64,000 nt of DNA from an uncultured Planctomycetales bacterium (lineage in GTDB: Bacteria > Omnitrophota > Gorgyraeia > Gygaellales > JAHJCI01). The notes under the pieces are model-generated. The model worked only from the letters and a program-made list of their open reading frames with translations. It was not told the DNA's origin and made no database searches. Every line of letters begins with the position of its first letter. The stretch's first letter is position 1. This document shows positions 1 to 21,427 of this stretch, one piece after another. The DNA lies in assembly GCA_964592485.1 (NCBI GenBank), contig CAZQEY010000001.1, positions 456 to 64,455 on the forward strand, in the 5' to 3' direction. The position numbers were made by a program, and so were the translations under genes.

Positions 1-926
1 CTAACAATATTTCTCCATGGATTCTGGATTTGAGCCTCCTCGTTTTTATTTTGCAATAGAGTAACATCGTCTGAAAAACCAAGTTCTGAGACGAGTTTCT
101 GCAGGATAAAAGATGGGTCATCAGAAAAACGTACAATATGCCTATATTCATTTATGTCCCATTCTTGTATTGGCTCGTTGTGAGAGCTTCCTGGAAAAAC
201 GCAGATGTAACAAGGGAAATTATTACTTTTCAAAACATTAATCATGAAAGGAAAGATGTCCTCATCATTACCGCTGTACCCTACAATTAGAACAGGTGAT
301 GATTTAAGTATTTTTTCTAGCAGGTTCTTCTTTTTTTCAGCCAAATGTTGAATCTGATCTAATCTGAATTGCAGAGAATGAGATAAGCTTAAACATCCAT
401 GCGGTTTATAAATAACGAATTTTTTCAAAATCGAACTTATATTATCTGCAATCTCATGCTTACTTCTTATCAATGTAAAAGGCACTGAATATGACGCTAA
501 TGCTTTCTCGAAATATGTATCAAAATTGGTTGTAATGAGTTTGCGTAAAACACCAGCTTTCGCTAAAACGGCGATGCATTCATGATTCAGATTGGGTACG
601 GACTGATTAAGCCCGCCAATGAGTTCCAGGGTACTTCTCAATCCAATGTTACTTGAAAGTACCCACATAAAAGTCTCGGGTCTTAGTGTAATCTCTGTAG
701 TCCTTGATTTTATTGCTTCTAAGAATGGCTTCTTGGGCCAATCTTGTTGAAGAAGTCTATCAATAAAACATTCAAGAATAAATGCCTTCAGACCAATCCA
801 TGTTGGACAACCAGTTGGTGAAGGGACAGAAATACCTGCTCCAGCGAATATAACTAAGCCATGTTTTGCAGCTTGTTTAAATATTTCTTCCCTTATTGAT
901 TCATTATGAGAAAGGTCTGCTGACAT
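1..926 (-). CDS. SIR2-family (sirtuin-like NAD-binding) protein, partial; about 308 aa visible and the C-terminus lies beyond the window start
   Basis: Hand translation of the minus strand from the ATG at 924-926 gives MSADLSHNESIREEIFKQAAKHGLVIFAGAGISVPSPTGCPTWIGLKAF... It stays open down to position 3 with no stop, which is why it is missing from the ORF track. 'GAGIS' is the Sir2 Rossmann signature. Confidence 0.55.
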   Translation of the reverse strand, partial: MSADLSHNESIREEIFKQAAKHGLVIFAGAGISVPSPTGCPTWIGLKAFILECFIDRLLQQDWPKKPFLEAIKSRTTEITLRPETFMWVLSSNIGLRSTLELIGGLNQSVPNLNHECIAVLAKAGVLRKLITTNFDTYFEKALASYSVPFTLIRSKHEIADNISSILKKFVIYKPHGCLSLSHSLQFRLDQIQHLAEKKKNLLEKILKSSPVLIVGYSGNDEDIFPFMINVLKSNNFPCYICVFPGSSHNEPIQEWDINEYRHIVRFSDDPSFILQKLVSELGFSDDVTLLQNKNEEAQIQNPWRNIV

Positions 927-1024
927 TATATTTTCACTCCTAAATTTCAATATATTTAATTCTTAATGTAATTAATCTCCAATAGGATCGGTATGCAACT
1001 AATTGTTTTGAAATACAGCGGTCT

Positions 1025-1245
1025 AACGGCCGAGCTAAGCGAATTGCGTATAATGAGGGTTGCGAACAGAATATTAGCAACCCGGGTTATGCGCAATTTC
1101 GCTTCAGCGAGTTGTTGGCGTGTCGCGAATCAGCGCGCAGGCAACTTATCAGGTCGAGTAGCTATTCACATTCCCGAGTAGTTTTTGGGGTGAAAGCAGC
1201 CAACAACTCGCTGGGAAAGCGACAGCTTAGCTCGGCCGTTGCCGT
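1025..1245. ncRNA. GC-rich, highly structured element with nested long perfect stems; candidate structured RNA, strand and function unknown
   Basis: A 16-bp perfect pairing joins 1025-1040 (aacggccgagctaagc) with 1226-1241 (gcttagctcggccgtt). A 15-bp perfect pairing joins 1106-1120 (cagcgagttgttggc) with 1198-1212 (gccaacaactcgctg). An inner 7-bp stem joins gggttgc and gcaaccc. The GC content is far above the flanking AT-rich DNA. The + ORFs 993..1181 and 1112..1324 lie inside these stems and look spurious. Confidence 0.3.
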
Positions 1246-1270
1246 GGCGCGCAGCGACACGGCAACAATT

Positions 1271-1294
1271 AATAGACGAATGTCGTCTTTTATG
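1271..1294 (+). terminator. Short intrinsic-terminator-like hairpin (agacga-atg-tcgtct followed by ttttatg)
   Basis: A 6-bp stem with a 3-nt loop followed by a T-run. A near-identical copy lies at 1391-1414. Confidence 0.3.
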
Positions 1295-1297
1295 TTA

Positions 1298-1325
1298 TTG
1301 AATACAGCTCTAACATTAGTATAAT
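1298..1325 (+). promoter_or_regulatory. Sigma70-like promoter: TTGAAT, 16-nt spacer, TATAAT
   Basis: TTGAAT at 1298-1303 and TATAAT at 1320-1325. It would drive an ~80-nt + strand transcript ending at the 1391-1414 hairpin. A homologous arrangement (TTGAAATACAGCGGTCTAAC...TATAATG at 1006-1054) lies upstream with a 21-nt insertion in the spacer. Confidence 0.3.
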
Positions 1326-1507: not shown

Positions 1508-1672
1508 TCTCTGTGGACAGGTCTGAGAGGTAACTCCCTTCACCAAGCCCAGAAATATCGCGCAAGGGGACGACCTCTCAAGACACAGCTATTGGGGAAT
1601 TTGAGAGGTATTCCTCGCTTCAAGCCCAGAAATACGGCGCGGCAGAAGAACTCTCTGTATACAGCTACTTAC
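1508..1672. repeat. Two tandem diverged copies of a ~77-80-nt unit, each able to form a hairpin
   Basis: Unit 1 (1508-1590) and unit 2 (1591-1672) share tgagaggta, caagcccagaaata, cgcg, ctctc and acagcta in the same order. Within unit 1, gagaggt pairs with acctctc and ctgtg with cacag. Confidence 0.5.
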
Positions 1673-1711
1673 CAGTTCCAAGTTAGGTGTCAATAAACCA
1701 CAGGATAATAA

Positions 1712-1849
1712 GGTGTGTGGAGATCAATATTAAGATTAAAATTAGGTAAGAAGGTTGAAGGAAAGAACCCGCTTGCTTTAAAGATTGATACTATTGAACG
1801 AATTGCCAAAGCGTTGAAAGTGAAGCCCGCCGAGTTGTTGAAGTTCTAA
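1712..1849 (+). pseudogene. Internally deleted remnant of an XRE-family HTH gene; paralogue of 3619..3834
   Basis: The + frame ending at TAA 1847-1849 reads ...LRLKLGKKVEGKNPLALKIDTIERIAKALKVKPAELLKF. The intact gene reads ...RLKLAKRIKQ[HTH]RIEGKNPPNIKLETIERLAKTLKTTPSRLLDF. The HTH segment is missing and there is an upstream stop at 1709. The 17-mer agttaggtgtcaataaa precedes both copies (1681-1697 and 3576-3592). Confidence 0.5.
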
Positions 1850-1869
1850 TCTTGCCATTAATTCTTCCC

Positions 1870-2742
1870 CTACTGTAACGCTTTCTTCGCTTCTTTGTAT
1901 TTTTCCTTAACAAATTGAGTTATCTTCTCAAGCTGTTCATCTTTACTTAGAGAAAAAAAATGGATATCTTCTAGACTTAAAGAAGCAGAGTAAATCAATT
2001 TGCCTTTTTTACCATAAGCCTCAATTATTATTGAAAGGGGGTTATCATGATATATTCCACAGAAAACTTTACTAGTCTCAATATAGAAACCAGAGTGACC
2101 CCATCCTCCAGATTTTAGTAATTTAAGTGACATCGCCTCAATCGCTACGCCAATCATATTTATAAGATTCTTAAAAGCAGGAAAACCATCAATATATTCC
2201 CACGAAACTTTTTGTACAGTCATGTTTTTCACCTCCAAAAATTTTAAAAACGAGTTTATAAAATACGTGCTAATGGGATTTTTACATTTAAGCTTCAAAA
2301 GCCAGTTTGCAACCTCGAACCAACGTACATGTTTATATGGTTTTTCTTGCTCCTGGTCAAAATCAATAGGAAATCTCGTTAATAAGATAACCTTTTTTAT
2401 AGGTACATTTGATATACTTAAAGCTGTTTTATACCGTTCTATTTGCCTATGTCCTAATCCAGAATCATGCTTAACTTCAATATATATTAACTTATCTGGA
2501 GAAGAGATTTTAATATCTGGCCTGCCCAGTTCTGTTGTTTCTTGTGTTGAAATTACGAGACTTTCATCATTCAAAAAATCAAAATCATTTTCTTTTACAC
2601 ATAGATGCCTCAGAATCTCTATGCAAGCAGAACGATCGCTCTCAAGCAGGGAATTAAGCACGAAAACAAAAGACTCTGTGAGATAGTTCTCGTCTACTGC
2701 TGAATTGTATTTTGATAAACTCGTGAATATATTATTAACCAT
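1870..2742 (-). CDS. PD-(D/E)xK nuclease superfamily protein; the track ORF is 1870..2790 but the start is likely the Met at 2742
   Basis: Motif ELGRPDIKISSPDKLIYIEVKHDSGLGHRQIERY (PD...E-V-K plus QxxxY). The first 16 codons of the track ORF overlap a strong hairpin terminator, so the second Met (MVNNIF...) is the more plausible start. Confidence 0.5.
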   Translation of the reverse strand: MVNNIFTSLSKYNSAVDENYLTESFVFVLNSLLESDRSACIEILRHLCVKENDFDFLNDESLVISTQETTELGRPDIKISSPDKLIYIEVKHDSGLGHRQIERYKTALSISNVPIKKVILLTRFPIDFDQEQEKPYKHVRWFEVANWLLKLKCKNPISTYFINSFLKFLEVKNMTVQKVSWEYIDGFPAFKNLINMIGVAIEAMSLKLLKSGGWGHSGFYIETSKVFCGIYHDNPLSIIIEAYGKKGKLIYSASLSLEDIHFFSLSKDEQLEKITQFVKEKYKEAKKALQ

Positions 2743-2754
2743 TTTTAGTGACCT

Positions 2755-2806
2755 ATAAAAACAAAAAACCTTTGCCTTCTTCGCAGGCAAAGGTTTTGCT
2801 TTTTGT
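2755..2806. terminator. Bidirectional rho-independent terminator
   Basis: An 11-bp perfect stem aacctttgcct / aggcaaaggtt with a 7-nt loop, flanked by an A-run upstream and ttgctttttgt downstream. Confidence 0.5.
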
Positions 2807-3175
2807 AACGTCCAGGTTCACCCTTCAACTCAGGACCCTACTTTCTAGAACCGTTATTAATGTACACCCTTTATAAGCCTTTGTCAACCTTTTCCTTAGC
2901 GCTTTTGGGTCTTAACAAACTGGTTTAAAACTAGCGGAATGCGGCCATTCGTAAAATATAGCTCTACTTCCTGGTAGCGGTCATGGAGATTGCAAGCTTT
3001 GGCAAATTCCTTATGTGATTCCGGAAACTTTTCAGGACCGTTGACCTACCCCCATTTATTGTACCACTAAGAATTGGGACTTTTAGCGTTATTTAATATT
3101 GATACAGCGACACCCGCCGCTGCTATAGATTTCTCCTGCCTGATAAATTTTTCCGGCGTAAGGTTGTTTAAAGAG

Positions 3176-3535
3176 CTAATGCGACCTTTCGGTATTATAA
3201 TCTTCCCCAGAGCATAAATCTATTGCTAATAACCAAATGCTCATTGCTTGACCCGCTAGTCTTACCCTGACTATTCCTTCCCAATACAATTGCTCTTCAA
3301 TGAAAACCTTAGTGCCCTCTTTAACTGAAAATATCTGTCCCTCAATAATTAATTTCGGTAATGCTTCTGCATCTTTAGCGAGAATTACATTAAGTAATTT
3401 TTTAATTCCTTCTTTGGTATAAGCTCCATAAGTATCTTTTTTAACAATATACGCCGATTCAGCAAAGCCTTTTGTTAAAAAATATATAGACAGTAAAAAA
3501 ATCGCAATTATCAATAAAATAATTGATTTCCTCAT
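3176..3535 (-). CDS. Small secreted or membrane-anchored protein of unknown function (119 aa)
   Basis: N-terminal hydrophobic signal or anchor MRKSIILLIIAIFLLSIYFL. No recognisable catalytic motif. Confidence 0.45.
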   Translation of the reverse strand: MRKSIILLIIAIFLLSIYFLTKGFAESAYIVKKDTYGAYTKEGIKKLLNVILAKDAEALPKLIIEGQIFSVKEGTKVFIEEQLYWEGIVRVRLAGQAMSIWLLAIDLCSGEDYNTERSH

Positions 3536-3618
3536 TTTAATCTCCCATCCTTTGTCAATTATACACCTTATTATAGTTAGGTGTCAATAAAACAAACACA
3601 GTGCGATAATACAGTGTT

Positions 3619-3834
3619 ATGAATACCGTAATTAGACTTAAATTAGCTAAAAGAATAAAGCAATTGCGCAAGAATCTTGGACTTACCCAAGAAAAACTTT
3701 CAGAAGTCTCAGGCATAGATTACAAATACATCCAAAGAATCGAAGGTAAAAATCCTCCCAATATAAAGCTTGAGACCATAGAAAGACTCGCCAAAACCTT
3801 AAAAACCACCCCCTCAAGACTGCTCGATTTTTAA
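3619..3834 (+). CDS. XRE-family helix-turn-helix transcriptional regulator (71 aa)
   Basis: LGLTQEKLSEVSGIDYKYIQRIE is a classic XRE HTH. Typical of phage and island control regions. Confidence 0.75.
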   Translation: MNTVIRLKLAKRIKQLRKNLGLTQEKLSEVSGIDYKYIQRIEGKNPPNIKLETIERLAKTLKTTPSRLLDF

Positions 3835-3937
3835 AAGCTTATCCTTCCTTAAATCATATATAAGCCATATATTTTGAGAGATATCAAGGTCGGCTGCAGA
3901 TAGGGATATATAAAAGGGGATTTCCAGTTTTATTGCA

Positions 3938-4579
3938 TCAATCACTCTGAAGCATCTTGAGTTTAATCCTTCTTCTTCGCTCTATAGCCTGGCACCAAGA
4001 TATACGGTGGTGCGGCGAAAGGCCGTTTTTTATGATCTTTTCCTCATGATTCTTAGTAAAAATGCCTTTATTATGTAGCCAATTATATTGCGGATATTTC
4101 TTGTGTAGCTTCAGCATTTCCTGGTCATGGTGGTATTTGGCTATAATCGAGGCTGCTGCTACACAAAGATATTTCTGGTCAGCATCGATTTCGGCCAATT
4201 GCCAACAGTAAATACCGCTTAGATTACGAAAATCTATCAATAGACAATTTGGCTTTAAATTTAGAGCTTTAACTGCCCTCTTCATAGCTTGGTCAATCGC
4301 CCAGGAGGTTCCTTTGGTATCTATCTCTTTTACTGTAGATTTAGCCACTGACCAAGCTCTTGCCTTTTGGATGAGTTCCTGATAGGCCTTCTTAAGCTGG
4401 CAATCATTCAATGTTTTGCAATCGCGGATAAGATGAGAGTATTTAAGGTTATAATCCAGGATTACCGCAGCTGCATAAATCGGCCCTGCATAACAACAAA
4501 CCGCCGCTTCATCAATTCCTGCTATTGGCCAGAATCTCTTGTCTTTGGCTAACACTAATTCTGATTTACTAGGTTTCAT
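3938..4579 (-). CDS. rnhB: Ribonuclease HII
   Basis: GIDEA..AGPIYAAAVIL (RNase HII DEAGRG-like catalytic motif), DCKTLN (DSKKLS-like), AAASIIAK. Confidence 0.75.
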   Translation of the reverse strand: MKPSKSELVLAKDKRFWPIAGIDEAAVCCYAGPIYAAAVILDYNLKYSHLIRDCKTLNDCQLKKAYQELIQKARAWSVAKSTVKEIDTKGTSWAIDQAMKRAVKALNLKPNCLLIDFRNLSGIYCWQLAEIDADQKYLCVAAASIIAKYHHDQEMLKLHKKYPQYNWLHNKGIFTKNHEEKIIKNGLSPHHRISWCQAIERRRRIKLKMLQSD

Positions 4580-6445: not shown

Positions 6446-7133
6446 GGTTATCCGCCTCTTTATCGTTTTCGTTTATTTCGTTTGTTTTCTCTTTGGTCAA
6501 TTGTGTAATGTCCTTGGCTATTCCAGCCTGTTCAATGCGCATCTTAAGCGCGTTTATTCTGCCTTTTACTGCCTCATCCAAGACACCATTGTCAGTAGCT
6601 ATTTTCTCTAAAGTAATTAATTCTTCTTTTAACTCAACAAGGGTCTTTTCTTCATCTTGAGAATCATCGTGATGATAGATATTACTGATTATCTTCTGAG
6701 GTGCAGAAGGTAGATATCCTAAATTTTGCAGGCGTTCTACAGTCTGATTTTGAATTTCCCAGGCAAGGCGCTCGGCATTAATTCTTTCCTGCAAAGAGCC
6801 TTCACTTGAACGGGCAACCCGCATAAGATGCGCCACTTGTGACTTTGACTTGGTAATTAACTCGGCAATGAATTGCAAGGCTATTTCAGTAGTGGGTCTT
6901 TTAGAATTTCGCTGCCAGATATCCTCAAGGTCACGCTTGATAGTTTTCTCGCTCCTATCCAGTAACTGGGCAATAGCTGAGACAGAATAGCCTTCAAGAA
7001 TTAAAACTTCCACGCATTCTTGACGAGCCTCTTTGAATAAATCTTTTGCCTGTAGCATGCCATCTTTTATTTGTTTTAAAGTTTTATAGACTGGGATTTC
7101 TTCTTTGTTTGTAATTTGGTTATTATTTTCCAT
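6423..7133 (-). CDS. HTH DNA-binding protein (sigma-70 region 4-like), possibly the terminase small subunit
   Basis: ILEGYSVSAIAQLLDRSEKTIKRDL resembles a sigma70 r4 HTH. It sits immediately upstream of, and overlaps by 23 nt, the large terminase gene. The C-terminus is acidic. Confidence 0.4.
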   Translation of the reverse strand: MENNNQITNKEEIPVYKTLKQIKDGMLQAKDLFKEARQECVEVLILEGYSVSAIAQLLDRSEKTIKRDLEDIWQRNSKRPTTEIALQFIAELITKSKSQVAHLMRVARSSEGSLQERINAERLAWEIQNQTVERLQNLGYLPSAPQKIISNIYHHDDSQDEEKTLVELKEELITLEKIATDNGVLDEAVKGRINALKMRIEQAGIAKDITQLTKEKTNEINENDKEADNHAREDKQ

Positions 7134-8458: not shown

Positions 8459-8597
8459 ATATGCGAACAGTTATTTTTATTAAATCATCGGATGCCAAAA
8501 CATCTCTAAAAAACTCCCGCAATTCTGACATACCATCTCTAATACGGCATTCTTGAAAAATAAATATTTTCTCAACTGCCTTATCTAATTTGACCAT
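8439..8597 (-). CDS. Small ORF (52 aa) with a perfect Shine-Dalgarno; below the track size cutoff
   Basis: AAAGGAGGTGAtaaaaATG lies upstream. Translation: MVKLDKAVEKIFIFQECRIRDGMSELREFFRDVLASDDLIKITVRIYEKDQD. The stop overlaps the start region of the ParB-methyltransferase gene. Confidence 0.4.
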   Translation of the reverse strand: MVKLDKAVEKIFIFQECRIRDGMSELREFFRDVLASDDLIKITVRIYEKDQD

Positions 8598-13794: not shown

Positions 13795-16700
13795 TTCTTC
13801 AGCTCCTCTAAATCTTCATCTTCTCCAGTTTCTTCTCTTTCTACTTCTGTTTCTTCATCTACCGGCGCTTCTTTTACATTAATTTTCGCTAAGCCCGCTC
13901 GCTTTGCTGCTTCTACTGCAGAGTTATACTTTACCTCAACTTGCGGCTGAATATTTCGAAGGCTATAACGAAATTTGCCTTGGCTTTTAAAAGGGTCTGT
14001 TATAAATGAACTTGGATTTTCTTTAACAGCTTCCTTAAAGTATTCCCAAAAATCCTCAATTTTTTCCTCATATGCTCCGCTGCCATCATCTTGAGAGCGG
14101 TAAATGCGTTTAAGAATTCCCAGCATTTCCTTTTCAGGAAAGCCACTTTCTAAAGCATCTCTTACTCTATTGCACCAGCGGAAATCTTGCCCCATCTTTG
14201 GTCCAAAATGGAACAAAAGCAAAGAGACAACAATGTTATTAAATGTTTGGTCTATTGCTGTGCGCGCAAATCTATTCAGAGGAATACCTTCAAGTATTTT
14301 ATCAGCAGTATGTACAAATGGACTCCAATATGTATAATATGAAACATCTCTGTCCTTATTGGGGCCGAGGACTGCTAAACAGAAAGCAGGTTTTCTCCGA
14401 CCTGTCCTGTTAAGAGTCTGGATGAATTCGCTTACATTAGAAGGAAGGCCAAAGAAAAATATGCTATTAAGATTCTCTATATCAATGCCTATAGAGGCGA
14501 TGTTTGTTGCATATATAAGTTCTTGCTGACGATTTTTTATTTTCTCTACAACTGAAGCCACCTTTTCTTCTTCAAAGTGCCTGCCAGAAAGCTCAACATA
14601 GCGCAGTGGAGGCGACCCTCTCTGTACTCTTTTAGGATTTATAGCATTCTTTATCATTTCCTGAAGGGTGTTTATATTTTTGTATGAAGAACAATAAATC
14701 ATAATCTGAGAAATAGAATAAAGTGGGTGGTTTATGTTAACGTGGCTTATATCAAAGCCGTAAATTTCAGCAAGAGTTTCAAAGTAAATATTACATAAGT
14801 CTGGTATAGCCCATGTTAATGGCCTATCTTGCGGCAATAAAGCAAGGGTTATATGTTTTAATTCGCTCTTCTCTATATAATATGCTCGGCTTTCTTTTTG
14901 GGGAGGCAGAATTATAGATTCTCCCTTGCCTACAAATCCAAGCTGGAACATGTGCCTCTTTATATAAGCAATAGTTGCTGTAGAAACAATAGGAATAGGG
15001 TATACACCAGTGTTTGCTTTGAAGATTTCTGCATAATCTGTCTCTATATGTGAATTTAATGTTCCTTCCGGCCCTCTGATTAAATGGCCTTCATCTAAAA
15101 TCAGAATACCAGGCTTTACTACTTGCTTTGAATTAGATAAGTCTCTCTTACAATCTGGGCAGCGGTTTCCAAGCATATAGCCGTGGTTTGGGCAAAAATA
15201 GGCTTCAATACCTAATAGGTTCCTTAACTTTTGCTGCATGGACCTTGCTATGAATTTATCCCACGTTGCAATCAAAAAACTTGGCACCTGAAAAAATATC
15301 TCATCTCCTATACCTAATGTGAGCCTATGCCCTTTTTCGCATATAAGTTGAGACGCGCCTGCGCAAAACTTTTTTTCTTCTTTCCATTCGCTATTGCAAA
15401 CTCCTCTTCCTGAAATAGGCCTTGGACATTTGCTTATAATATCTTTTGGCGACTCATAGGCCCCCTTCTTGCCAACAAAATATCCTATTCCTGCTGGCTC
15501 TCCTAAAATTTCATCCAAAACAATACTATATCCAGCAAGCCTCCGCGCCTGATCACTGCTTAACAGTGTAACAGGGTATTTGATTATATTAATTGACTTA
15601 GAACCTTTTTGTTTCTCAAAAAAGATAGCCCACATAGCCGCCGAAAGGAAACTCTCTGTTTTGCCTCCAGCAGTTGGAATATTTAGCACTATTGGCTGAA
15701 GATCCATTTTTCCCTTTAGGTAACAACTGGCAGCTACAAGCAAAGTAACTAATTGGTGACAATACCAAGGCACCTCTTTTCCAAAACACCGACCGTATAC
15801 TTCTGATACTTTCTTAAACGCACCCATACCTTGTGGAGAACGCTTAATTTCTTCAGCGCACTCCTTAAGAAAAGAAATATGAGCATCACTAGCTCCTGCT
15901 TTTTCTAATATCGAAATAACTGAATCTATGGCTTCTCCAGGAGCTTCTGCGGCTTCCTTAAATGTGGGGCCTTTCCTGGGTTCTTCCATCTGCGTTTTTG
16001 ACTTAGCAATTGGTGTAAAAATTAGTTCTTTTTCTGTACTTAGCTCTTTATCAAAGGAAATATTAGCACTAAATGCTTCTACATTATAGTCATCCAGAAC
16101 GGGGCATTTAAAATCCATTAGCGAATTCTCTTTTAAGCCAATTTTTATTCTTACATCGAACCAGTTTGACTCTCCAGCCGCCCTGCTTTTGCCGCTATAC
16201 GTGTTCGCCAATATTATAGAGACTAGCGAAGCCCCATCTTCCCTTATTTCAGAATTAACAGCAATACTGCCTTGCCAGTTTGGCGAATCTCCTAAAGATT
16301 TATAACTTTCTCTGAAATCTGCAAGGTCTAATTCTACAAAGTTATTTTCAAGACTGAGCCTAAATGTTTTGGCATAACGCTTTCTAATAAATACAGTCTG
16401 ACTTTGCGCTTCTCCTTTCTCTGGAGCCGGCGCGCTCTGACTAGAATGTGTTCCGTTAACCGGTGATTGAGATAGTCTTTCTCTCCAATCTTTCCATATT
16501 TCATCTTCTTTTATCTCATCAGCTAATCCTCTTAAGTCTTGCAAAACTTTACCTTTTAACGGCGCCTTTGCCCGAAAGTACAGCGTAAAAGAGGGAGTAA
16601 TACTTATATCCTTAAGCTCCCCCTGTACTCTAAATTGCACCTTACAAGAGCTAGGTGCAACTTTACTTTTATATTCAAAGTTTCTCCTATTTGAGTCAGA

Positions 16701-16850
16701 TTCTGAGGCTGGAAACAACATCCCTGTATTAAACTTATCAGAAGGCAGTGAATCTGTTACTAATCTTTGGCTATCGCAATTGCCAAGCACTCTTTTAATA
16801 AAACTATCTGAAAAATCAATTACCGCTTTTGAAAGTTGATCTTGAAACAT
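13791..16850 (-). CDS. Large SF2 helicase (1019 aa); DrmA-like
   Basis: Walker A NIPTAGGKTESFL, motif II ILILDEGH (DEGH), motif III STATIA, motif VI QTLNRTGRR. There is an ~350-aa N-terminal domain of unknown function. Confidence 0.7.
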   Translation of the reverse strand: MFQDQLSKAVIDFSDSFIKRVLGNCDSQRLVTDSLPSDKFNTGMLFPASESDSNRRNFEYKSKVAPSSCKVQFRVQGELKDISITPSFTLYFRAKAPLKGKVLQDLRGLADEIKEDEIWKDWRERLSQSPVNGTHSSQSAPAPEKGEAQSQTVFIRKRYAKTFRLSLENNFVELDLADFRESYKSLGDSPNWQGSIAVNSEIREDGASLVSIILANTYSGKSRAAGESNWFDVRIKIGLKENSLMDFKCPVLDDYNVEAFSANISFDKELSTEKELIFTPIAKSKTQMEEPRKGPTFKEAAEAPGEAIDSVISILEKAGASDAHISFLKECAEEIKRSPQGMGAFKKVSEVYGRCFGKEVPWYCHQLVTLLVAASCYLKGKMDLQPIVLNIPTAGGKTESFLSAAMWAIFFEKQKGSKSINIIKYPVTLLSSDQARRLAGYSIVLDEILGEPAGIGYFVGKKGAYESPKDIISKCPRPISGRGVCNSEWKEEKKFCAGASQLICEKGHRLTLGIGDEIFFQVPSFLIATWDKFIARSMQQKLRNLLGIEAYFCPNHGYMLGNRCPDCKRDLSNSKQVVKPGILILDEGHLIRGPEGTLNSHIETDYAEIFKANTGVYPIPIVSTATIAYIKRHMFQLGFVGKGESIILPPQKESRAYYIEKSELKHITLALLPQDRPLTWAIPDLCNIYFETLAEIYGFDISHVNINHPLYSISQIMIYCSSYKNINTLQEMIKNAINPKRVQRGSPPLRYVELSGRHFEEEKVASVVEKIKNRQQELIYATNIASIGIDIENLNSIFFFGLPSNVSEFIQTLNRTGRRKPAFCLAVLGPNKDRDVSYYTYWSPFVHTADKILEGIPLNRFARTAIDQTFNNIVVSLLLFHFGPKMGQDFRWCNRVRDALESGFPEKEMLGILKRIYRSQDDGSGAYEEKIEDFWEYFKEAVKENPSSFITDPFKSQGKFRYSLRNIQPQVEVKYNSAVEAAKRAGLAKINVKEAPVDEETEVEREETGEDEDLEELKK

Positions 16851-17532
16851 TATTCAAACTCCTTTTTCCATAGTTACAAAAATTTTGTAAAACGCACCTT
16901 TGGCATTTCGGAAACTGATTACGGCAGCAGTCGCGCCCAAGACTAATGCAATTAACATGATACGAATATCTTTTCTGAAGAGGTATTAATTTTTCTAACC
17001 TGTGGTGCGCCTCTGCTAAACTAATATGCTGAGGAATCAAACCTAACCTACATGAAATCCTGAAGACGTTAATATCAACTGGCAAAACACCCCTGCTCAA
17101 TGAATACATTAAAATACAGTAGGCCGACTTAATACCAAGCCCCGGCAAACCCATTAAGTAGTCTAATGCCTCCGGAGTTTCTAATTTTTTAAGCCAGGCC
17201 AAACTTACTATTCCTCTATCCTTATAAATCTTTTTTATCAAGTTCTTTATTTGCCCTGCCTTTTGATTTTCAAGACCGCTCGATTTAATTACATTAGCTA
17301 TATTCTTTATTGGCATCTTCAATATATTTTTCCAGACTTTACATTTGCCTTTTAATTTTTTGTACGCCTCGGAAAATCTCTGTCCGTCAGTTTGTTTTGA
17401 TAGTATTATATAAATGGCTTCATCAAGCGGATTACTCTTGTTCCCATGTCTTGAATTTCCATATTTTTCAAGTCTGCGAATTATCTTATAAATGTCTTTC
17501 CGGGAGGATACTTTCTTAATCTTAACTTTCAT
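16816..17532 (-). CDS. HhH-GPD / endonuclease III-family DNA glycosylase with a [4Fe-4S] loop
   Basis: HhH motif LPGLGIKSAYCIL...PVDINVFRI. C-terminal C-x6-C-x2-C-x5-C (CRNQFPKCQRCVLQNFC) is the Nth/MutY iron-sulfur signature. It lies 16 nt after the methyltransferase gene and overlaps the helicase start by 35 nt. Confidence 0.75.
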   Translation of the reverse strand: MKVKIKKVSSRKDIYKIIRRLEKYGNSRHGNKSNPLDEAIYIILSKQTDGQRFSEAYKKLKGKCKVWKNILKMPIKNIANVIKSSGLENQKAGQIKNLIKKIYKDRGIVSLAWLKKLETPEALDYLMGLPGLGIKSAYCILMYSLSRGVLPVDINVFRISCRLGLIPQHISLAEAHHRLEKLIPLQKRYSYHVNCISLGRDCCRNQFPKCQRCVLQNFCNYGKRSLNNVSRSTFKSGN

Positions 17533-17548: not shown

Positions 17549-18472
17549 TCATTTGGGAAATGGACTAATAACTGCTTTTGCAACTGATGGGGACACTGCA
17601 TTGCCTATTTGCCAATATTTTGCCTCTAAAGAATCTTCTACCTTAAAATTATCCGGAAAACTCTGAATCCTTGCACATTCTTTCCACGAAAGTCTTCTAT
17701 GCCTAGACCCTTTGGGTAATATCCATTTATCTTCGCTCACATATACCATTGGCTTGCCCATTGGATGAAGAGGTACATGCCTCCAATTTGCCAAAATACA
17801 GTAACTTACTTCATCCCAACCACGTTTTCTATTTCTTGAAAGATAATACCATGGGAAACCTTCATCATAAAACTCACCTTCTGGCCACCTGGGTAAATCC
17901 CATATAGAATCTCGAAGAGTCACGTAATTTTTTAACCCTGGGCCATGAGTTGGTTTAGGGAATGTATATTGAAAGTCTACACTTTTTTTTACTCCGACAA
18001 TAAATATTCTCTTCCTATCCTGCGGAACCCCAAAGTCTTTAGCATCTAATACTTCCCATTTAACTGCATACCCAGCTGCTCTATAAGCTTTTAGCTGGTT
18101 CTTTAAAAATCTTCCATTATAGAGAACTGCCATACCATTTACATTTTCTGCTATGAAAAATTTTGGCTTTATTGTTTTTATACATCTAAGAAACTGCCTG
18201 TAAAGGTAATTTCTTTCATCAAATGATTTTCTATTCCCTCCCACACTGAAACCTTGGCAAGGATAACAACCTACAGCCATATCTGCCTTAGGAAAATTCT
18301 TTACATTATCAATATCGCCACGAAAGAATTCAACCTCTGGAAAGTTTGCTATATAAGATTTTGCTGCGGGAGGATATATATCATTAGCCCATATGATTTT
18401 GTGACCTGCTAGCTTAACCCCGAAATCAAAACCGCCACAACCAGAAAATAAAGATATAACTTTTAAAGGCAT
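17549..18472 (-). CDS. DNA (cytosine-5)-methyltransferase; DrmMII-like
   Basis: Motif I FSGCGGFDFG, motif IV GCYPCQGFS (PCQ), motif VI ENVNG, motif X QIGNAV. Confidence 0.85.
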   Translation of the reverse strand: MPLKVISLFSGCGGFDFGVKLAGHKIIWANDIYPPAAKSYIANFPEVEFFRGDIDNVKNFPKADMAVGCYPCQGFSVGGNRKSFDERNYLYRQFLRCIKTIKPKFFIAENVNGMAVLYNGRFLKNQLKAYRAAGYAVKWEVLDAKDFGVPQDRKRIFIVGVKKSVDFQYTFPKPTHGPGLKNYVTLRDSIWDLPRWPEGEFYDEGFPWYYLSRNRKRGWDEVSYCILANWRHVPLHPMGKPMVYVSEDKWILPKGSRHRRLSWKECARIQSFPDNFKVEDSLEAKYWQIGNAVSPSVAKAVISPFPK

Positions 18473-18790
18473 TATTTATTTCCCTTTATCTGATTTTTCC
18501 GCCACTCATTTATTTCTTTTTTATCGAATCTCCACTGCCCACCAAATTTAAAAGCCGGGATTTTTCTTTCCCGGCTTAATCTTCTTATTGAATAAGGAGC
18601 AATTTAAGGACTTCTGCTATTTCTTTAACTGTATGAACCTCGGATAATTCCCCCATTAAGGCTCCTGTTACATTTTGTTATATATTATATCGCCAATTTA
18701 TTCTCTCCACAATCAAAAAATACCTCTTTAAAATACTCTATTTGCCTTGATATCTCTCGAAATATATGGCTATATATGACCTGAGGTGAG

Positions 18791-19252
18791 ATGACCGTGA
18801 AAGAAAAATTGCAATCCGAGATAGAAAAACTAAATAATGCAACTTTTGAACAAGTTCAAGAAAAATATCATGAGCTTTTTGATGTTAAAGAGATACCTTG
18901 TGGCAATAAAAGTTACTTGCTAAAGAGAATTATTTACAAATTACAAGAAATCGAATATGGCGGTTTATCAAAAGAAGCTAAAAATAAAATTGAAGAATTA
19001 ACTAAAGAATTCGATCCTATTAATAATATTGCTCTCAGGCCAAGCATTCCGAAAGAAAGAGTATTCTTACGAGATAGGCGCCTTCCTATTCCGGGGACAG
19101 TAATCATTAAAGAATATAAAGGCAATAATTTCAAAGTTAAAGTCTTAGAAAGGGGTTTTGAATATAATGGCAAGATTTTTAAATCCCTTACTGCGATAGC
19201 TAAAGAAATAACCGGGGCTCATTGGAACGGATATTTATTTTTTAATCTATGA
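18791..19252 (+). CDS. DUF2924-family protein; the usual partner of large serine recombinases
   Basis: RRLPIPGTVIIKEYKGNNFKVKVLERGFEYNGKIFKSLTAIAKEITGAHWNGYLFF matches the DUF2924 consensus (...ITGtrWNGwrFFgl). Its stop overlaps the recombinase start (ATGA). Confidence 0.5.
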   Translation: MTVKEKLQSEIEKLNNATFEQVQEKYHELFDVKEIPCGNKSYLLKRIIYKLQEIEYGGLSKEAKNKIEELTKEFDPINNIALRPSIPKERVFLRDRRLPIPGTVIIKEYKGNNFKVKVLERGFEYNGKIFKSLTAIAKEITGAHWNGYLFFNL

Positions 19253-20622
19253 AAGACGAAAAGAAAACTAAACAAGAAAAGAAACAAAACTTCTGTGCTA
19301 TTTATACGCGCGTCTCCACTGCTGAAAACTTAGAACAGGAATTTACTTCTTTGGATGCCCAGCGCGAATCTGCTGAAAGCTACATCTTAAGCCAAAAATC
19401 TGAAGGTTGGATCGCTCTAACAGAACATTATAATGACGCCGGTTATACCGGAGCAAATACAGATAGACCTGCCTTGCAAAGGCTTATCCAAGATATCAAA
19501 GATAGAAAAATTAACTGTGTTGTAGTTTATAAAGTAGATAGATTATCTCGTTCTTTGCTTGATTTCAGCCAGCTTTTAGAATTTTTTGAGCAACATAATG
19601 TGGCTTTTGTTTCAGTAACGCAAAATTTTAACACTAACACTTCTATGGGGCGATTAACCTTGAATATCCTACTTTCTTTTGCTCAATTTGAAAGAGAAAT
19701 CATTAGTGAAAGAACGCGTGATAAGATGGGTGCTGCCAAAAAGAAAGGCAAATGGATCGGCGGAAGGCCGCCTTTAGGCTATGATCTTGATAGGGTAAAC
19801 CATAAGCTTGTAATAAATCCAAAGGAAGCTAAGCTCGTGCGTAAAATATTCGACCTATATCTTGAAAAACGCTCGCTTTTGGCTGTAACTATTGCCTTAA
19901 ATGAACAAGGCTTCAAGACAAAGAGCTATATCACGCTTCAAGGTAGAACCTTCGGTGGAATTAAATTTAAAAACACGGGAATTCAACTAATTTTAAAGAA
20001 TATTTATTATACCGGTAAAGTCAAATACAATGGCGAAATCTATCCAGGCGAACAAGAGCGCATAATATCCGATGAAACATTTCAAAGGGCTCAAGAAATC
20101 TTAATCGAAAACAGACCAGAACGAAAAATTACCCAAAATGCCAAAAATATTGGCTTACTTAGCGATATTTTGCGCTGTAAAAACTGCAATTGTTCGATGT
20201 ATTATGCCTACGCTATAAAAGGCAAATATAAATACCACTATTATCTCTGTATGAATGCTCAAAAGCGCGGCTACAAAAGCTGTCCTACGCGCTTAATCAA
20301 CGCTCAGGCTATTGAAAATAAAGTAATCGAATGCCTCAAAAATATTATCAATGATAAGGAAAAACCAAACAAAATTTTAAAAATATTAAATAAGGGGCCC
20401 TCAAAGGAAAAAGCCATAACTATGGAAAAACTTAGAGATGTCATAATGGTAAATTCCCCACTCTGGGGAAATTTCAGCCTTAAAGAAAAGAGGCGAATGC
20501 TTATGTTAATTGTTAAAGGTATGGACTATGATTCCAAAAATGGAGTTTTAGGAATTACCCTGAATGAAAATGGACTAAAATTCTTATGTGCAAATATAGA
20601 TTTCAATCAAAAGGATAGGTAA
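19249..20622 (+). CDS. Large serine recombinase (integrase)
   Basis: N-terminal resolvase domain AIYTRVSTAENLEQ...DAQRE with the catalytic Ser in RVST, a recombinase domain, and a C-terminal zinc ribbon CKNCNC...CMNAQKRGYKSC. Confidence 0.85.
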   Translation: MKDEKKTKQEKKQNFCAIYTRVSTAENLEQEFTSLDAQRESAESYILSQKSEGWIALTEHYNDAGYTGANTDRPALQRLIQDIKDRKINCVVVYKVDRLSRSLLDFSQLLEFFEQHNVAFVSVTQNFNTNTSMGRLTLNILLSFAQFEREIISERTRDKMGAAKKKGKWIGGRPPLGYDLDRVNHKLVINPKEAKLVRKIFDLYLEKRSLLAVTIALNEQGFKTKSYITLQGRTFGGIKFKNTGIQLILKNIYYTGKVKYNGEIYPGEQERIISDETFQRAQEILIENRPERKITQNAKNIGLLSDILRCKNCNCSMYYAYAIKGKYKYHYYLCMNAQKRGYKSCPTRLINAQAIENKVIECLKNIINDKEKPNKILKILNKGPSKEKAITMEKLRDVIMVNSPLWGNFSLKEKRRMLMLIVKGMDYDSKNGVLGITLNENGLKFLCANIDFNQKDR

Positions 20623-20623
20623 A

Positions 20624-20998
20624 ATGGATAGTGCTTTAAGATTTGAATTTAAAGTAGCTTTAAAAGAGCTTAAACATCAAAGGCCAAAATGTAAAGAAGC
20701 TGAAATCAGGAAAGAGCCTCGTCTTCGCCAGACATTAATCTTGGCTTATCATATTCAAGATATTATTAGTGAAAATAGAGCTAAGGATTTTACGCAAATT
20801 GCAAAATGGCTCAATATGACCAAAGCTAGGCTAAGCCAAATTATGAATTTTGTTAATCTGGCACCTTGTATCCAGGAAGAAATTCTCCTCTCTAAAAATA
20901 ACAAAATCCAGGAATTTACTGAATATAAAATCCGAGCAATTACTATAGAGTCCGGTTGGGAAAAACAAAAGAAGCTCTGGAAAGAACTAATTTCATAA
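20624..20998 (+). CDS. Small HTH-containing protein (124 aa); function unknown
   Basis: IAKWLNMTKARLSQIMNFVNLAP is HTH-like. It is co-oriented with the recombinase and starts 2 nt after it. Confidence 0.4.
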   Translation: MDSALRFEFKVALKELKHQRPKCKEAEIRKEPRLRQTLILAYHIQDIISENRAKDFTQIAKWLNMTKARLSQIMNFVNLAPCIQEEILLSKNNKIQEFTEYKIRAITIESGWEKQKKLWKELIS

Positions 20999-21340
20999 AT
21001 CTTACCTCTTATCTCTTCTTTAATCTCGCTGATTTATTGTTAAAATCCATTTAACTCATATTTCTAAAAGAAGAATGCCAACAAAAATACGACAAATATT
21101 AAAAAAATAGCAGTTAAATGGCATCTGTTAAATGCAGAGATAAAATGGTAGATTTTAGAGAAAAATCAGCAGATTACTGGCAGATTCATTTAACAAGTTT
21201 ACTGAATCAGAAAATGTGATTAGATTATCAAGCTTATAATGCCCTAACCTTTTGACAAATCGATACATAAAAATAGCCTTGATTAACGATAATAATCAAG
21301 GCTATTGACCTCTCAAATTGCAAATTGAGAGAGAATTTAT

Positions 21341-21415
21341 TGGGGTGGCTAACGGGATTTGAACCCGCTCTAAGAGAGCCACAGTCTCTCGTGCTGCCAT
21401 TACACCATAGCCACC
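21341..21415 (-). tRNA. tRNA-His (GTG) with encoded G-1 and CCA
   Basis: Reverse complement GGTGGCTATGGTGTAATGGCAGCACGAGAGACTGTGGCTCTCTTAGAGCGGGTTCAAATCCCGTTAGCCACCCCA. Anticodon loop CTGTGGC, extra 5' G pairing with C73, 7-bp acceptor stem, T-loop TTCAAAT. Confidence 0.85.
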
Positions 21416-21427
21416 ATTGACTTTTAT

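What the first reader, a model, noticed from the sequence alone, without database searches (positions are those of the whole stretch)
1..21420. tRNA-His-flanked island with a serine recombinase, defence cargo and an orphan phage packaging module
A serine recombinase with DUF2924 and a small HTH gene abuts tRNA-His. Leftward lie the DISARM-like operon, a ParB-methyltransferase, a putative small and a large terminase, RNase HII, XRE regulators, a PD-(D/E)xK nuclease and SIR2. No capsid, portal or tail genes are present. That makes it a phage satellite or degraded prophage carrying defence cargo. The left end is outside the window.
Basis: inference. Interest (0 to 1): 0.55.

Follow-up and report, generated by a model that had tools for sequence, protein, structure and literature searches.

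The report
Serine-recombinase defence island with orphan terminase
This is a mobile island inserted next to a tRNA-His gene in an uncultured Omnitrophota bacterium; it belongs to a widespread, apparently undescribed family that keeps a phage DNA-packaging motor but no capsid genes and swaps anti-phage defence systems in and out, so it is most likely a phage-hijacking satellite.

Summary
The listed genes are all present. Three details need correcting: the palindrome is 10/11 pairs at 21310-21331; the 124-aa ORF is a split recombinase C-terminus, not an HTH gene; the PD-(D/E)xK call is weak.

Comparison with about 260 related loci shows the region is not a one-off decayed prophage. It belongs to a family with a fixed backbone:
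- an HTH_17 gene;
- DUF2924 plus a large serine recombinase (LSR);
- a small ORF, ParB-methyltransferase, HTH "TerS-like" gene and large terminase (TerL);
- an XRE regulator.

Members sit at the 3' end of tRNA genes, tRNA-His in this clade. Nine members carry unrelated defence cargo between the LSR module and ParB-MT. Here the cargo is a divergent DISARM-like operon with an EndoIII-type glycosylase.

None of six sequences that continue past a family TerL (five loci) has a portal or head gene. In phage contigs with the nearest TerL relatives, 41 of 62 have a Mu-like portal just downstream. TerL catalytic motifs are intact.

The LSR module and the spacer up to tRNA-His are 82% identical in DNA to those of a distant host, which indicates horizontal transfer.

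Best reading is a satellite-like, LSR-mobilised defence island (confidence 0.5). The left end was not found, and the Xis-like HTH_17 gene is frameshifted here.

The parts
1..935 (-). SIR2_2-family gene, C-terminus cut by the window edge. Whether it lies inside the island is unresolved.
   Evidence: Translation carries the GAGIS motif. Seven homologues were found, mostly PF13289 and about 384 aa. PADLOC matches SIR2, Dsr1 and ThsA models.
1000..1291 (+). Highly structured non-coding element ending in a hairpin plus T-run. It is divergent from SIR2 and its function is unknown.
   Evidence: MFE -141 kcal/mol, z=-9.5. No Rfam match at E<=1.
1524..1664 (-). Family-conserved 68-nt non-coding motif: full copy at 1599-1664, partial copy at 1524-1563. 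Candidate regulatory, pac or att-related site.
   Evidence: nhmmer finds it also in L171, L172 and twice in L174, always on the TerL-distal side. RNA structure support is weak.
1700..1848 (+). Remnant of a second XRE gene, with a duplicated 20-nt leader (1681-1700 and 3575-3594).
   Evidence: Sequence reading. Repeat D19.
1870..2742 (-). 290-aa protein, weakly PD-(D/E)xK-like.
   Evidence: PF14281 E=0.002, below cut-off. PADLOC PDC-S26 1e-4. The gene was called as 290 aa in an independent assembly.
3176..3535 (-). 119-aa protein of unknown function.
   Evidence: Only a weak phrog_25409 hit.
3619..3834 (+). XRE/Cro-C1-type HTH regulator. A backbone gene of the family.
   Evidence: HTH_3 1.5e-11. 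Homologues in L010 and L102; XRE-type genes annotated in the same family in L171 and L174.
3854..3890 (-). Inverted second copy of the DUF2924 promoter-like sequence (CCTTGATA..ATGGCTATATA).
   Evidence: 35/37 identical to 18745-18781. Found only in this island, not in other family members. A third, looser copy precedes RNase HII.
3938..4579 (-). RNase HII, cargo beyond TerL.
   Evidence: PF01351 3e-27.
4766..6445 (-). Large terminase, intact, Mu-like lineage.
   Evidence: phrog_38 4e-110. 39-41% identical to Mushu and DMS3 TerL. Walker A and B and the nuclease Asp residues are conserved in >=95% of 120 homologues.
6423..7133 (-). TerS-like HTH protein whose gene overlaps the TerL start.
   Evidence: HTH_38 2.8e-6, phrog_7067 1.3e-4. 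A gene of 217-236 aa sits directly upstream of TerL in L098, L171, L172, L174, L176, L178 and L260; only the L098 one was confirmed by sequence (37% aa). No hit in phage records.
7154..8458 (-). ParB-N plus N6/N4 DNA methyltransferase.
   Evidence: PF01555 8e-34, ParB_N, phrog_498 2e-131. Relatives 50-66% identical lie in L010, L094, L098 and L100.
8439..8597 (-). Small 52-aa ORF preceding ParB-MT, recurring in the family.
   Evidence: Called in L170. Counterparts in L171, L172 and L178.
8944..11355 (-). 803-aa protein of unknown function, last gene of the DISARM-like operon. It sits in the DrmE position but is not DrmE-like by sequence.
   Evidence: No hit in Pfam, PADLOC (E<=1), NCBIfam or PDB.
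11321..12160 (-). DrmC-like PLD nuclease.
   Evidence: PLDc_2 9e-11. PADLOC DrmC 2e-12. NF038319 is far below its cut-off.
12148..13794 (-). DrmB-like protein.
   Evidence: PADLOC DrmB 4e-28. Best PDB hit is 7S9V_B, DrmB.
13791..16850 (-). DrmA-like helicase.
   Evidence: PADLOC DrmA 4e-35. Best PDB hit is 7S9V_A, DrmA, 2e-19.
16816..17532 (-). HhH-GPD (EndoIII-type) DNA glycosylase, inserted between the methyltransferase and DrmA.
   Evidence: PF00730. PDB hits are EndoIII, ROS1 and Mig 1KEA. PADLOC 'type II nicking endonuclease' 4e-14.
17549..18472 (-). C5 cytosine DNA methyltransferase (DrmMII-like).
   Evidence: PF00145 2e-70. PADLOC DrmMII 1.6e-58.
18472..18656 (-). HTH_17 (excisionase/MerR-like) backbone gene, frameshifted here.
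   Evidence: The two reading frames together match the intact 59-aa L005 protein. The sequence is identical in an independent Logan contig.
18745..18781 (+). Promoter-like sequence upstream of DUF2924-LSR.
   Evidence: Conserved in L005. Repeated at 3854-3890.
18791..19252 (+). DUF2924 (RAMA-like DNA-binding) protein, the obligate partner gene of this LSR clade.
   Evidence: PF11149 1.3e-38. Found in 79 of 89 loci then held. The RAMA relationship is stated in PMC11342252.
19249..20622 (+). Large serine recombinase.
   Evidence: Three Pfam domains. Catalytic S23 is invariant in 27 homologues.
20624..20998 (+). Split C-terminal segment of the LSR.
   Evidence: Aligns inside the 545-aa LSR ORF of L010. 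The same split occurs in L005 and L098.
20999..21340 (.). Conserved island end: spacer with TTAAATG repeats, GGTTAGGGCATTAT motif (21236-21249), terminator hairpin (21272-21306) and CTCTC/GAGAG hairpin (21310-21331).
   Evidence: About 85% identical to L005. The same order of elements lies beside tRNA-Glu, -Met and -Gln islands and after TerL in L260.
21341..21414 (-). tRNA-His (GTG), with its 3' end facing the island.
   Evidence: ARAGORN and Rfam. 71/74 identical to the L005 tRNA-His, yet unlike that of the closer host L001.

Best explanation
Window 1-21340 is the tRNA-proximal part, at least 21 kb, of a site-specific integrative island. The island belongs to a family common in Omnitrophota.

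Proposed life cycle (all inferred):
- A large serine recombinase acts with its DUF2924 DNA-binding partner and a small HTH_17 Xis-like protein. Together they insert and excise the element at the 3' end of tRNA-His.
- The element brings its own short post-tRNA hairpin and transcription terminator.
- The backbone keeps a phage-derived packaging unit (ParB-methyltransferase, an HTH TerS-like protein and an intact Mu-lineage large terminase) but no portal, capsid, tail or lysis genes.
- The island therefore most likely behaves as a phage satellite. On infection or induction of a helper phage it excises, and its own terminase pair loads island DNA into the helper's procapsids. The ParB-methyltransferase pre-methylates that DNA.
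- Between the recombinase module and the packaging unit, and again beyond TerL, lie slots where defence systems are exchanged.

Cargo in this copy:
- a divergent DISARM-like operon: C5-methyltransferase, EndoIII-type glycosylase, DrmA, DrmB, DrmC and an unknown 803-aa protein;
- RNase HII, a nuclease-like gene and possibly SIR2.

The glycosylase probably repairs T:G mismatches produced by 5mC deamination, the role Vsr plays next to Dcm in a sister island.

What is shown: gene content, family conservation, site specificity, cargo turnover and horizontal transfer.
What is inferred: excision, helper dependence, packaging and the roles of DUF2924 and HTH_17.

This copy may be partly disabled, because its HTH_17 gene is frameshifted.
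For: 1. Same site, different cargo.
- L005-L008 hold the HTH_17 | DUF2924-LSR-orf124 | spacer | tRNA-His | AsmA block. It is 82% identical in DNA over window 18676-21420, but the cargo is a PLD-helicase plus an MmeI-like enzyme.
- L094, L100, L174, L010, L172, L176 and L098 have other cargo or none.

2. Site specificity.
- tRNA-His lies 660-1090 nt downstream of the LSR in 9 further loci.
- Other LSR clades sit at tRNA-Asn (18 loci), Met, Glu, Gln and Lys.
- The tRNA 3' end faces the element in all but two of the tRNAs found near the LSR.

3. Horizontal transfer. Against L005, LSR-module proteins are 84-86% identical, versus RNase PH 69%, Ham1 64% and AsmA 32%.

4. Packaging unit kept without a head module.
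- Six sequences continuing past a family TerL (five loci) show no portal or head gene: window, L172, L174, L176 and two units in L178. L260 has a 710-nt gap and then a Na+/H+ exchanger.
- In 62 phage contigs with TerL 36-43% identical, 41 have a Mu-like portal 70-770 nt downstream. None of them has the ParB-MT or TerS-like genes.
- TerL motifs are conserved in at least 95% of 120 homologues of 430-578 aa.
- No TerL above 45% identity exists among 2.9 M viral contigs, whereas more than 100 at 47-78% lie in metagenome or MAG contigs.

5. Island-borne end. The CTCTC hairpin, terminator and GGTTAGGGCATTAT motif occur in the same order beside four different tRNA species. They are absent from the four tRNA-His sites that lack the recombinase module.

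6. L174 has Vsr plus Dcm in the slot where this island has its C5-MTase plus glycosylase.
Against: - No replication module (primase, Rep or helicase) was found in the backbone, unlike PICIs, P4 and tycheposons.
- No helper phage is known, and there is no evidence of excision or encapsidation.
- TerS identity rests on gene position and an HTH.
- The distal end and the att sites were not defined.
- Beyond TerL the content is a patchwork (XRE remnant, duplicated promoter), which shows some decay.
- HTH_17 is frameshifted in this copy.
- A satellite that supplies its own TerL must fit a foreign portal, which is unusual.
Confidence: 0.5

Rival explanations
1. This is a serine-recombinase-mobilised defence island that is not transduced. 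The ParB-methyltransferase, HTH protein and TerL unit has been domesticated as an anti-phage or interference module. It might cut or sequester phage concatemers, or poison the phage packaging motor, with self DNA protected by the methyltransferase. The island would spread by other routes.
For: The three-gene unit always sits among defence systems. The family has no replication genes. The ParB-MT and TerS-like genes are absent from the 80 phage contigs with the nearest TerL. TerL retains its nuclease residues.
Against: No defence model in PADLOC matches TerL or the HTH protein. Full-length conservation of both the ATPase and nuclease domains, plus an overlapping upstream HTH gene, is the canonical terminase layout. 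The LSR-ParB-MT pairing also occurs in contigs predicted to be viral.
Confidence: 0.2
2. This is a degraded prophage. An LSR-integrating, Mu-lineage-terminase phage lost its head, tail and lysis genes, and defence genes accumulated in the remnant.
For: TerL is 39-41% identical to that of real phages. Related LSRs occur in predicted viral contigs. This copy shows decay marks: the HTH_17 frameshift, an XRE remnant and a duplicated promoter fragment.
Against: The same capsid-less architecture, with an intact TerL of conserved length, recurs in independent hosts with LSR identities of 59-84%. No structural pseudogenes are detectable. Random decay would not repeatedly stop at exactly TerL.
Confidence: 0.15
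3. This is the packaging part of a dispersed GTA-like system. The terminase pair serves particles whose structural genes lie elsewhere in the host chromosome.
For: It has an orphan but intact TerS-like/TerL pair. The DUF2924-recombinase pairing was noted beside WO-type or GTA-like loci in Wolbachia.
Against: The unit is carried on a horizontally moving, site-specific element with variable cargo. That is not expected for a host-domesticated GTA. Nothing structural lies within the 64-kb window near the island.
Confidence: 0.05

Closest known systems
Phage-inducible chromosomal islands (PICIs) and PICI-like tycheposons
   Same: These are site-specific integrative islands of about 10-20 kb, often next to tRNA genes. 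They have regulators, a packaging-redirecting terminase gene, no tail genes, and accessory or defence cargo. Tycheposon features are taken from bioRxiv 10.1101/2020.12.28.424599.
   Different: This island uses a large serine recombinase with a DUF2924 partner, whereas those elements mostly use tyrosine recombinases. It carries TerL as well as a TerS-like gene. It has no primase or replication module. It has a ParB-methyltransferase. Its host phylum is Omnitrophota.
Capsid-forming PICIs (cf-PICIs)
   Same: Satellites that encode their own small and large terminases (my own knowledge of the cf-PICI literature).
   Different: cf-PICIs also encode capsid, portal, protease and connector proteins. 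None of these is present here or in family members.
Class 2 DISARM (DrmMII-DrmE-DrmA-DrmB-DrmC)
   Same: A C5-methyltransferase plus a DrmA-like helicase, a DrmB-like protein and a DrmC-like PLD nuclease in one tightly packed operon. The best PDB hits are DrmA and DrmB of 7S9V.
   Different: Scores are far below the NCBIfam curated cut-offs. No DrmE homologue is present; an unrelated 803-aa protein takes its place. An EndoIII-type glycosylase is inserted in the operon.
LSR-integrating temperate phages with a DUF2924 gene (for example the phage WO region of Wolbachia)
   Same: The DUF2924 gene lies immediately upstream of a large serine recombinase. The LSR has the resolvase, recombinase and zinc-ribbon architecture.
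   Different: Those are full prophages with portal, head and tail genes. I am not aware of tRNA 3'-end targeting by an LSR being a described norm, and two targeted literature searches returned no description of one.
Mig.MthI / Vsr repair partners of C5-methyltransferases
   Same: A repair enzyme is encoded next to a C5-MTase. The glycosylase here matches 1KEA (Mig) at 2e-12, and a sister island carries Vsr plus Dcm.
   Different: The closest matches are EndoIII-1-type monofunctional glycosylases and ROS1. Specificity was not tested, so a defensive role against modified phage DNA is not excluded.

Membership tests
Large serine recombinase (integrase) | N-terminal resolvase domain with a catalytic serine | tested here: met
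   PF00239 3.8e-40. S23 in the YxRVS motif is invariant in 27 homologues.
Large serine recombinase (integrase) | Recombinase domain, zinc ribbon and C-terminal extension | tested here: met
   PF07508 and PF13408. The C-terminal extension is in a separate 124-aa ORF. The same split is seen in L005 and L098.
Large serine recombinase (integrase) | Defined attL/attR pair around the element | tested here: inconclusive
   The tRNA-side end is mapped to the tRNA 3' end plus the hairpin block. No distal site was found in the window.
Class 2 DISARM | DrmA helicase, DrmB and DrmC core | tested here: inconclusive
   PADLOC hits at 4e-35, 4e-28 and 2e-12, and PDB 7S9V as top hit. All three are far below the NCBIfam cut-offs: 120 vs 950, 54 vs 240, 38 vs 133 bits.
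Class 2 DISARM | DrmMII C5 methyltransferase | tested here: met
   PF00145 2e-70; PADLOC DrmMII 1.6e-58.
Class 2 DISARM | DrmE | tested here: not met
   The 803-aa neighbour has no PADLOC hit at E<=1 and no Pfam, NCBIfam or PDB hit.
Phage satellite (PICI-like) | Integrase plus regulator, and absence of virion structural genes | tested here: met
Phage satellite (PICI-like) | Own replication module (primase/Rep plus ori) | tested here: not met
   No such domain in any island ORF or in the backbone genes of relatives.
Phage satellite (PICI-like) | Packaging-redirecting gene(s) | tested here: met
   TerS-like gene plus intact TerL.
Phage satellite (PICI-like) | Helper-dependent induction and encapsidation | not testable with these tools
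   This needs reads, VLP data or experiments.
Capsid-forming PICI | Own capsid, portal and protease genes | tested here: not met
   No hits in the window or in the five other family loci that extend past TerL.
Intact prophage | Portal, head, tail and lysis modules following the terminase | tested here: not met
   In phage relatives the portal follows TerL in 41/62 loci.
Terminase large subunit | Walker A/B ATPase plus RNase-H-like nuclease residues | tested here: met
   AAPRDNAKSS (62-71), D174 D175 E177, D363, D496 D497 are conserved. phrog_38 4e-110.
Terminase small subunit | Sequence homology to known TerS families | tested here: inconclusive
   Only phrog_7067 at 1.3e-4 over 30 residues and Terminase_5 at 0.009. 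No tblastn hit in phage records. Position and HTH fit.
Tycheposon | tRNA-adjacent, with a tRNA-specific tyrosine recombinase and replication hallmark genes | tested here: not met
   It is tRNA-adjacent, but it has an LSR and no replication genes.

The most novel reading that the evidence does not exclude
These elements would be a previously undescribed, phylum-wide class of phage satellites in Omnitrophota and neighbouring lineages. Four traits would define them:
- they are mobilised by DUF2924-partnered large serine recombinases that target the 3' ends of specific tRNA genes;
- they bring their own post-tRNA hairpin and terminator;
- they carry both terminase subunits but no capsid genes, so their motor must dock on a foreign portal;
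- they act as exchangeable platforms for DNA-modification-based defence systems.
Probability: 0.35. Interest if true: 0.75.

Novelty: new variant of a known kind. Interest (0 to 1): 0.6.

Why it matters
- Satellite diversity. If these are satellites, they extend phage-satellite biology to an uncultured, often host-dependent phylum. They also add a new design, a satellite that brings the whole terminase but no capsid.
- Recombinase tools. They would show a serine-recombinase clade with systematic tRNA targeting. That would give a set of natural LSR/att pairs with predictable targets, which is of interest for genome engineering.
- Defence discovery. The fixed backbone with a swappable cargo slot is a practical bait for finding new defence systems. 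The 803-aa DISARM partner, the glycosylase-containing DISARM variant and several unannotated cargo genes are candidates.

Tried and rejected
1. Walking left of the window by exact-protein look-ups.
- AsmA and the 306-aa ORF are not on record.
- The 290-aa ORF, TerL and LSR returned only Logan unitigs covering window 1684-13547 and 13579-21522.
- The partial SIR2 found no exact record.
- The 240,875-bp NCBI contig could not be reached.

2. The 27/37-nt inverted repeat (3854-3890 and 18745-18781) as att or inversion sites. Rejected.
- It is a promoter-like sequence with an RBS.
- It is shared in looser form by the RNase HII promoter.
- The recombinase gene would lie outside the segment it bounds.
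- No other family member has a second copy.

3. A displaced tRNA-His fragment, or a second GGTTAGGGCATTAT motif, as a marker of the left end. None was found in 1-21340.

4. The 68-nt conserved motif (1599-1664) as the distal att site. Unresolved.
- It ends in a 12-mer that is inverted relative to the tRNA-side hairpin arm, and an assembly breaks 20 nt away.
- However, it occurs twice in L174 flanking a gene, and it precedes ORFs like a regulatory site.

5. An RNA fold of that motif. Weak, at -6.7 kcal/mol with one covarying pair.

6. Rfam for the structured 1000-1291 element. No match.

7. Single-protein scans of viral contigs with LSR and TerL found nothing. Alignment-based scans worked.

8. 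Synteny with L001's post-tRNA genes. No orthologues lie in the island part of the window.

9. An island-borne complete tRNA-His. Suggestive but unproven.
- The window, L005 and L100 share a 74-nt tRNA type unlike that of the closer host L001.
- Other islands sit beside ordinary 77-78-nt tRNA-His genes.

Full report
**1. What is in the sequence**

tRNA-His (GTG) lies at 21341-21414 on the minus strand, so its 3' end faces lower coordinates.

To its left, on the plus strand, are three ORFs:
- DUF2924 (18791-19252);
- a large serine recombinase, LSR (19249-20622; Resolvase, Recombinase and Zn_ribbon_recom domains);
- a 124-aa ORF (20624-20998).

The 124-aa ORF is not an HTH protein. It aligns inside the C-terminal part of longer LSR homologues, for example the 545-aa ORF of L010. 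The same two-ORF split occurs in L005 and L098, so it is a stable feature of this sub-clade.

Divergent from DUF2924 is a small HTH_17 (excisionase/MerR-like) gene at 18472-18656. It is intact in L005 (59 aa) but frameshifted here. An independent Logan assembly of the same sample has the identical sequence.

That gene leads a tightly overlapping minus-strand operon:
- C5-methyltransferase;
- HhH-GPD/EndoIII-type glycosylase;
- DrmA-like helicase;
- DrmB-like protein;
- DrmC-like PLD nuclease;
- an 803-aa protein with no detectable relatives in any library.

Next on the minus strand come a 52-aa ORF, the ParB-N/N6-N4 methyltransferase, a 236-aa HTH protein overlapping the start of TerL, and TerL itself.

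Beyond TerL the order is as follows:
- RNase HII;
- an XRE gene on the opposite strand;
- a 119-aa ORF;
- a weakly PD-(D/E)xK-like 290-aa ORF;
- an XRE remnant;
- about 900 nt of non-coding sequence;
- a SIR2_2-family gene that runs off the window.

No portal, capsid, tail or lysis gene is detectable.

It lies at 21310-21331 and has 10 of 11 pairs.

**2. Host and insertion site**

The nearest flanking-gene relatives are uncultured 'Planctomycetales' and Omnitrophota MAGs. The tRNA-Pro / tRNA-Arg / AsmA-like / tRNA-His order is conserved in them.

- In L001 (AsmA 65% aa, tRNA-Pro 100% identical) tRNA-His is followed by two cold-shock genes and a radical-SAM gene. This relative has no island at the site.
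- In L003 a different small restriction-modification island follows the tRNA.

**3. A family, not a one-off**

*Same module, other cargo.* The LSR has thousands of relatives, many named Omnitrophota. Its 84%-identical relative (L005-L008; GCA_016783325.1) sits in the same block: HTH_17 | DUF2924-LSR-124aa | about 350 nt | tRNA-His | AsmA-like. DNA identity over window 18676-21420 is 82% and stops 6 nt past the tRNA. The cargo, however, is a PLD-SNF2 helicase plus an MmeI-like methyltransferase-nuclease.

*Transfer between hosts.* Between these two genomes the LSR-module proteins are 84-86% identical. RNase PH is 69%, Ham1 64% and AsmA 32% identical. The module has therefore moved between hosts.

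*tRNA targeting.* Alignment-based scans of viral and metagenome contigs gave 160 further loci.
- tRNA-His lies 660-1090 nt downstream of the LSR in nine of them.
- Other LSR clades lie at tRNA-Asn (18 loci), Met, Glu, Gln and Lys.
- The tRNA 3' end faces the recombinase module in all but two of the tRNAs found near the LSR.

*Backbone and cargo.* Backbone genes recur. ParB-MT is 50-66% identical in L010, L094, L098 and L100. TerS-like and TerL genes are present in L098. L098 shows the bare backbone, with only a 193-aa ORF between ParB-MT and DUF2924.

Cargo between the LSR module and ParB-MT in other members:

| Locus | Cargo |
|---|---|
| L094 | type III RM, an OLD-family nuclease and RmuC |
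| L100 | type III RM and an AAA_13 ATPase |
| L010 | KAP NTPase and a BsuBI/PstI RM system |
| L174 | Vsr and Dcm |
| L172 | type I RM, ThsB-TIR and a lipase |
| L176 | DUF1156 and DUF499 |

The window's DISARM-like operon occupies this slot.

**4. The orphan packaging unit is a conserved trait**

TerL is closest, at 39-41%, to Mu-lineage phage terminases such as Mushuvirus and DMS3. In those phages TerS, TerL, portal and head genes follow one another.

More than 100 homologues at 47-78% identity exist in metagenome and MAG contigs. Among 2.9 million viral contigs the best match is only 45% identical.

What follows TerL in family contexts that continue past it:

| Locus | Genes after TerL |
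|---|---|
| window | RNase HII, XRE |
| L172 | PTS-EIIA-like gene |
| L174 | XRE, GIY-YIG, PD-(D/E)xK, an OLD plus UvrD (Gabija-like) pair |
| L176 | DUF2130, HEPN, AAA_13 |
| L178, unit A | the LSR of a second, tandem unit after 620 nt |
| L178, unit B | ArsR and metal-resistance genes |
| L260 (78% TerL) | 710 nt, then a Na+/H+ exchanger |

None of the six sequences tested (five loci: window, L172, L174, L176 and both L178 units) matches a Mu-like portal, minor head protein or protease. By contrast, 41 of 62 viral contigs with enough sequence have the portal 70-770 nt downstream. None of the 80 viral loci has the family's ParB-MT or TerS-like genes.

TerL keeps its catalytic residues: Walker A (AAPRDNAKSS), Walker B (DD..E) and the nuclease aspartates. 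These residues are at least 95% conserved across 120 homologues of 430-578 aa.

Repeated, independent retention of an intact terminase pair without a head module argues against random prophage decay.

**5. The tRNA-side end**

Downstream of the tRNA's CCA, all tRNA-His islands show the same order of elements. So do islands at tRNA-Glu (L099), tRNA-Met (L104) and tRNA-Gln (L106). The order is:
- 4-9 nt;
- a hairpin with a CTCTC/GAGAG stem whose arms co-vary between loci;
- a second hairpin with a T-run, which is a terminator for the tRNA;
- about 20 nt;
- the motif (C)AAAGAGTTAGGGCATTAT;
- a 240-310-nt spacer running to the LSR.

tRNA-His sites without the recombinase module (L001-L004) lack this block. 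In L260 the whole block follows TerL, preceded by a T-arm-like sequence plus CCA. In L178 a tRNA-like 3' end lies between the two tandem units.

The simplest reading has three parts. The block is island-borne. Recombination occurs at or within the tRNA 3' end. Tandem insertions leave a displaced tRNA 3' fragment at the distal junction.

No such fragment, and no second copy of the motif, exists in window 1-21340. The left end is therefore probably outside the window.

It should not be expected at an empty site.

**6. Other repeats**

*The 37-nt inverted repeat (3854-3890 and 18745-18781).* It contains TTGATA...TATATA, an RBS and the DUF2924 start region. A looser version precedes RNase HII here and the first gene after TerL in L172. 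No other member has a second copy. I read it as a duplicated promoter/operator, not an att site.

*The 68-nt motif (1599-1664, partial copy 1524-1563).* It is shared at about 90% identity with L171, L172 and L174 (two copies), always distal to TerL. Its function is open. It could be a regulatory site, a pac site or a cassette boundary.

**7. DISARM-like operon**

DrmA, DrmB and DrmC are the best matches in PADLOC, NCBIfam and the PDB (7S9V). The scores are far below the curated cut-offs, and DrmE is absent. This makes the operon a divergent relative, not a certified member.

The glycosylase matches EndoIII-1, ROS1 and the T:G glycosylase Mig. L174 carries Vsr plus Dcm in the same slot. A role in repairing 5mC-deamination mismatches is therefore the most economical inference. 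A defensive base-excision role is not excluded.

**8. Verdict**

The island interpretation is supported.

Several points remain open:
- there is no replication module;
- no helper phage is known;
- the distal end is undefined;
- there is no direct evidence of excision or packaging;
- a domesticated, defence-type role for the terminase unit remains a serious rival.

Literature searches found nothing describing this architecture. DUF2924 appears in three papers, all on Wolbachia; one notes it immediately upstream of a recombinase and one as a partial match to the RAMA DNA-binding domain.

Noticed in passing
window 23105-23527: An intact tRNA-Pro (23105-23183) is followed by an 81-aa GIY-YIG ORF (23189-23434). 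After that comes an exact 29-nt copy of the tRNA-Pro 5' end (23499-23527). This looks like a homing-endonuclease-type insertion that rebuilt the tRNA.
   Followed up: partly
L094 11900-12540: The layout is the same as at tRNA-Pro in the window. A tRNA-His 5' half truncated at the anticodon loop is followed by an HNH endonuclease ORF and then an intact tRNA-His of different sequence, next to an LSR island.
   Followed up: partly
window 1000-1291 (+): A stretch of about 290 nt has an exceptionally stable multi-branched fold (-141 kcal/mol, z=-9.5). It ends in a hairpin plus T-run and is divergent from the SIR2 start codon. There is no Rfam match. A second similar terminator hairpin lies at 1392-1411.
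   Followed up: partly
window 1524-1664; L171 11712-11776; L172 12301-12368; L174 18695-18761 and 20311-20375: A conserved 68-nt non-coding motif lies distal to TerL in several family members, with about 90% identity over its 42-43-nt core between islands whose TerL proteins are 54-75% identical to the window's. Its function is unknown.
   Followed up: partly
L178 990-11695: Two ParB-MT/TerS-like/TerL units lie in tandem, with one LSR module between them. There is no tRNA at the junction, only a tRNA-like 3' end.
   Followed up: partly
L260 2386-3097: The closest TerL relative (78%) is followed by a T-arm-like sequence plus CCA, the CTCTC hairpin, the GGTTAGGGCATTAT motif and the spacer. A Na+/H+ exchanger then takes the place of an LSR. 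This may be an attP-like or decayed tandem junction.
   Followed up: partly
L148 2381-2683: Five 33-nt direct repeats occur with a 67-nt period next to an LSR relative. The array looks CRISPR-like.
   Followed up: no
window 1684, 13548-13578, 21522: Independent Logan unitigs of the same sample break at these three points. Two of them lie near a candidate island feature or the island-host junction. Strain heterogeneity is possible.
   Followed up: no
window 32138-32545: The tmRNA has an unusually long predicted tag of 29 aa. The relative L004 also has a long tag.
   Followed up: no
window 36000-64000: GC content falls to 0.29-0.38 (lowest at 40-43 kb), against 0.40-0.49 in 22-36 kb. This may be another variable region.
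   Followed up: no
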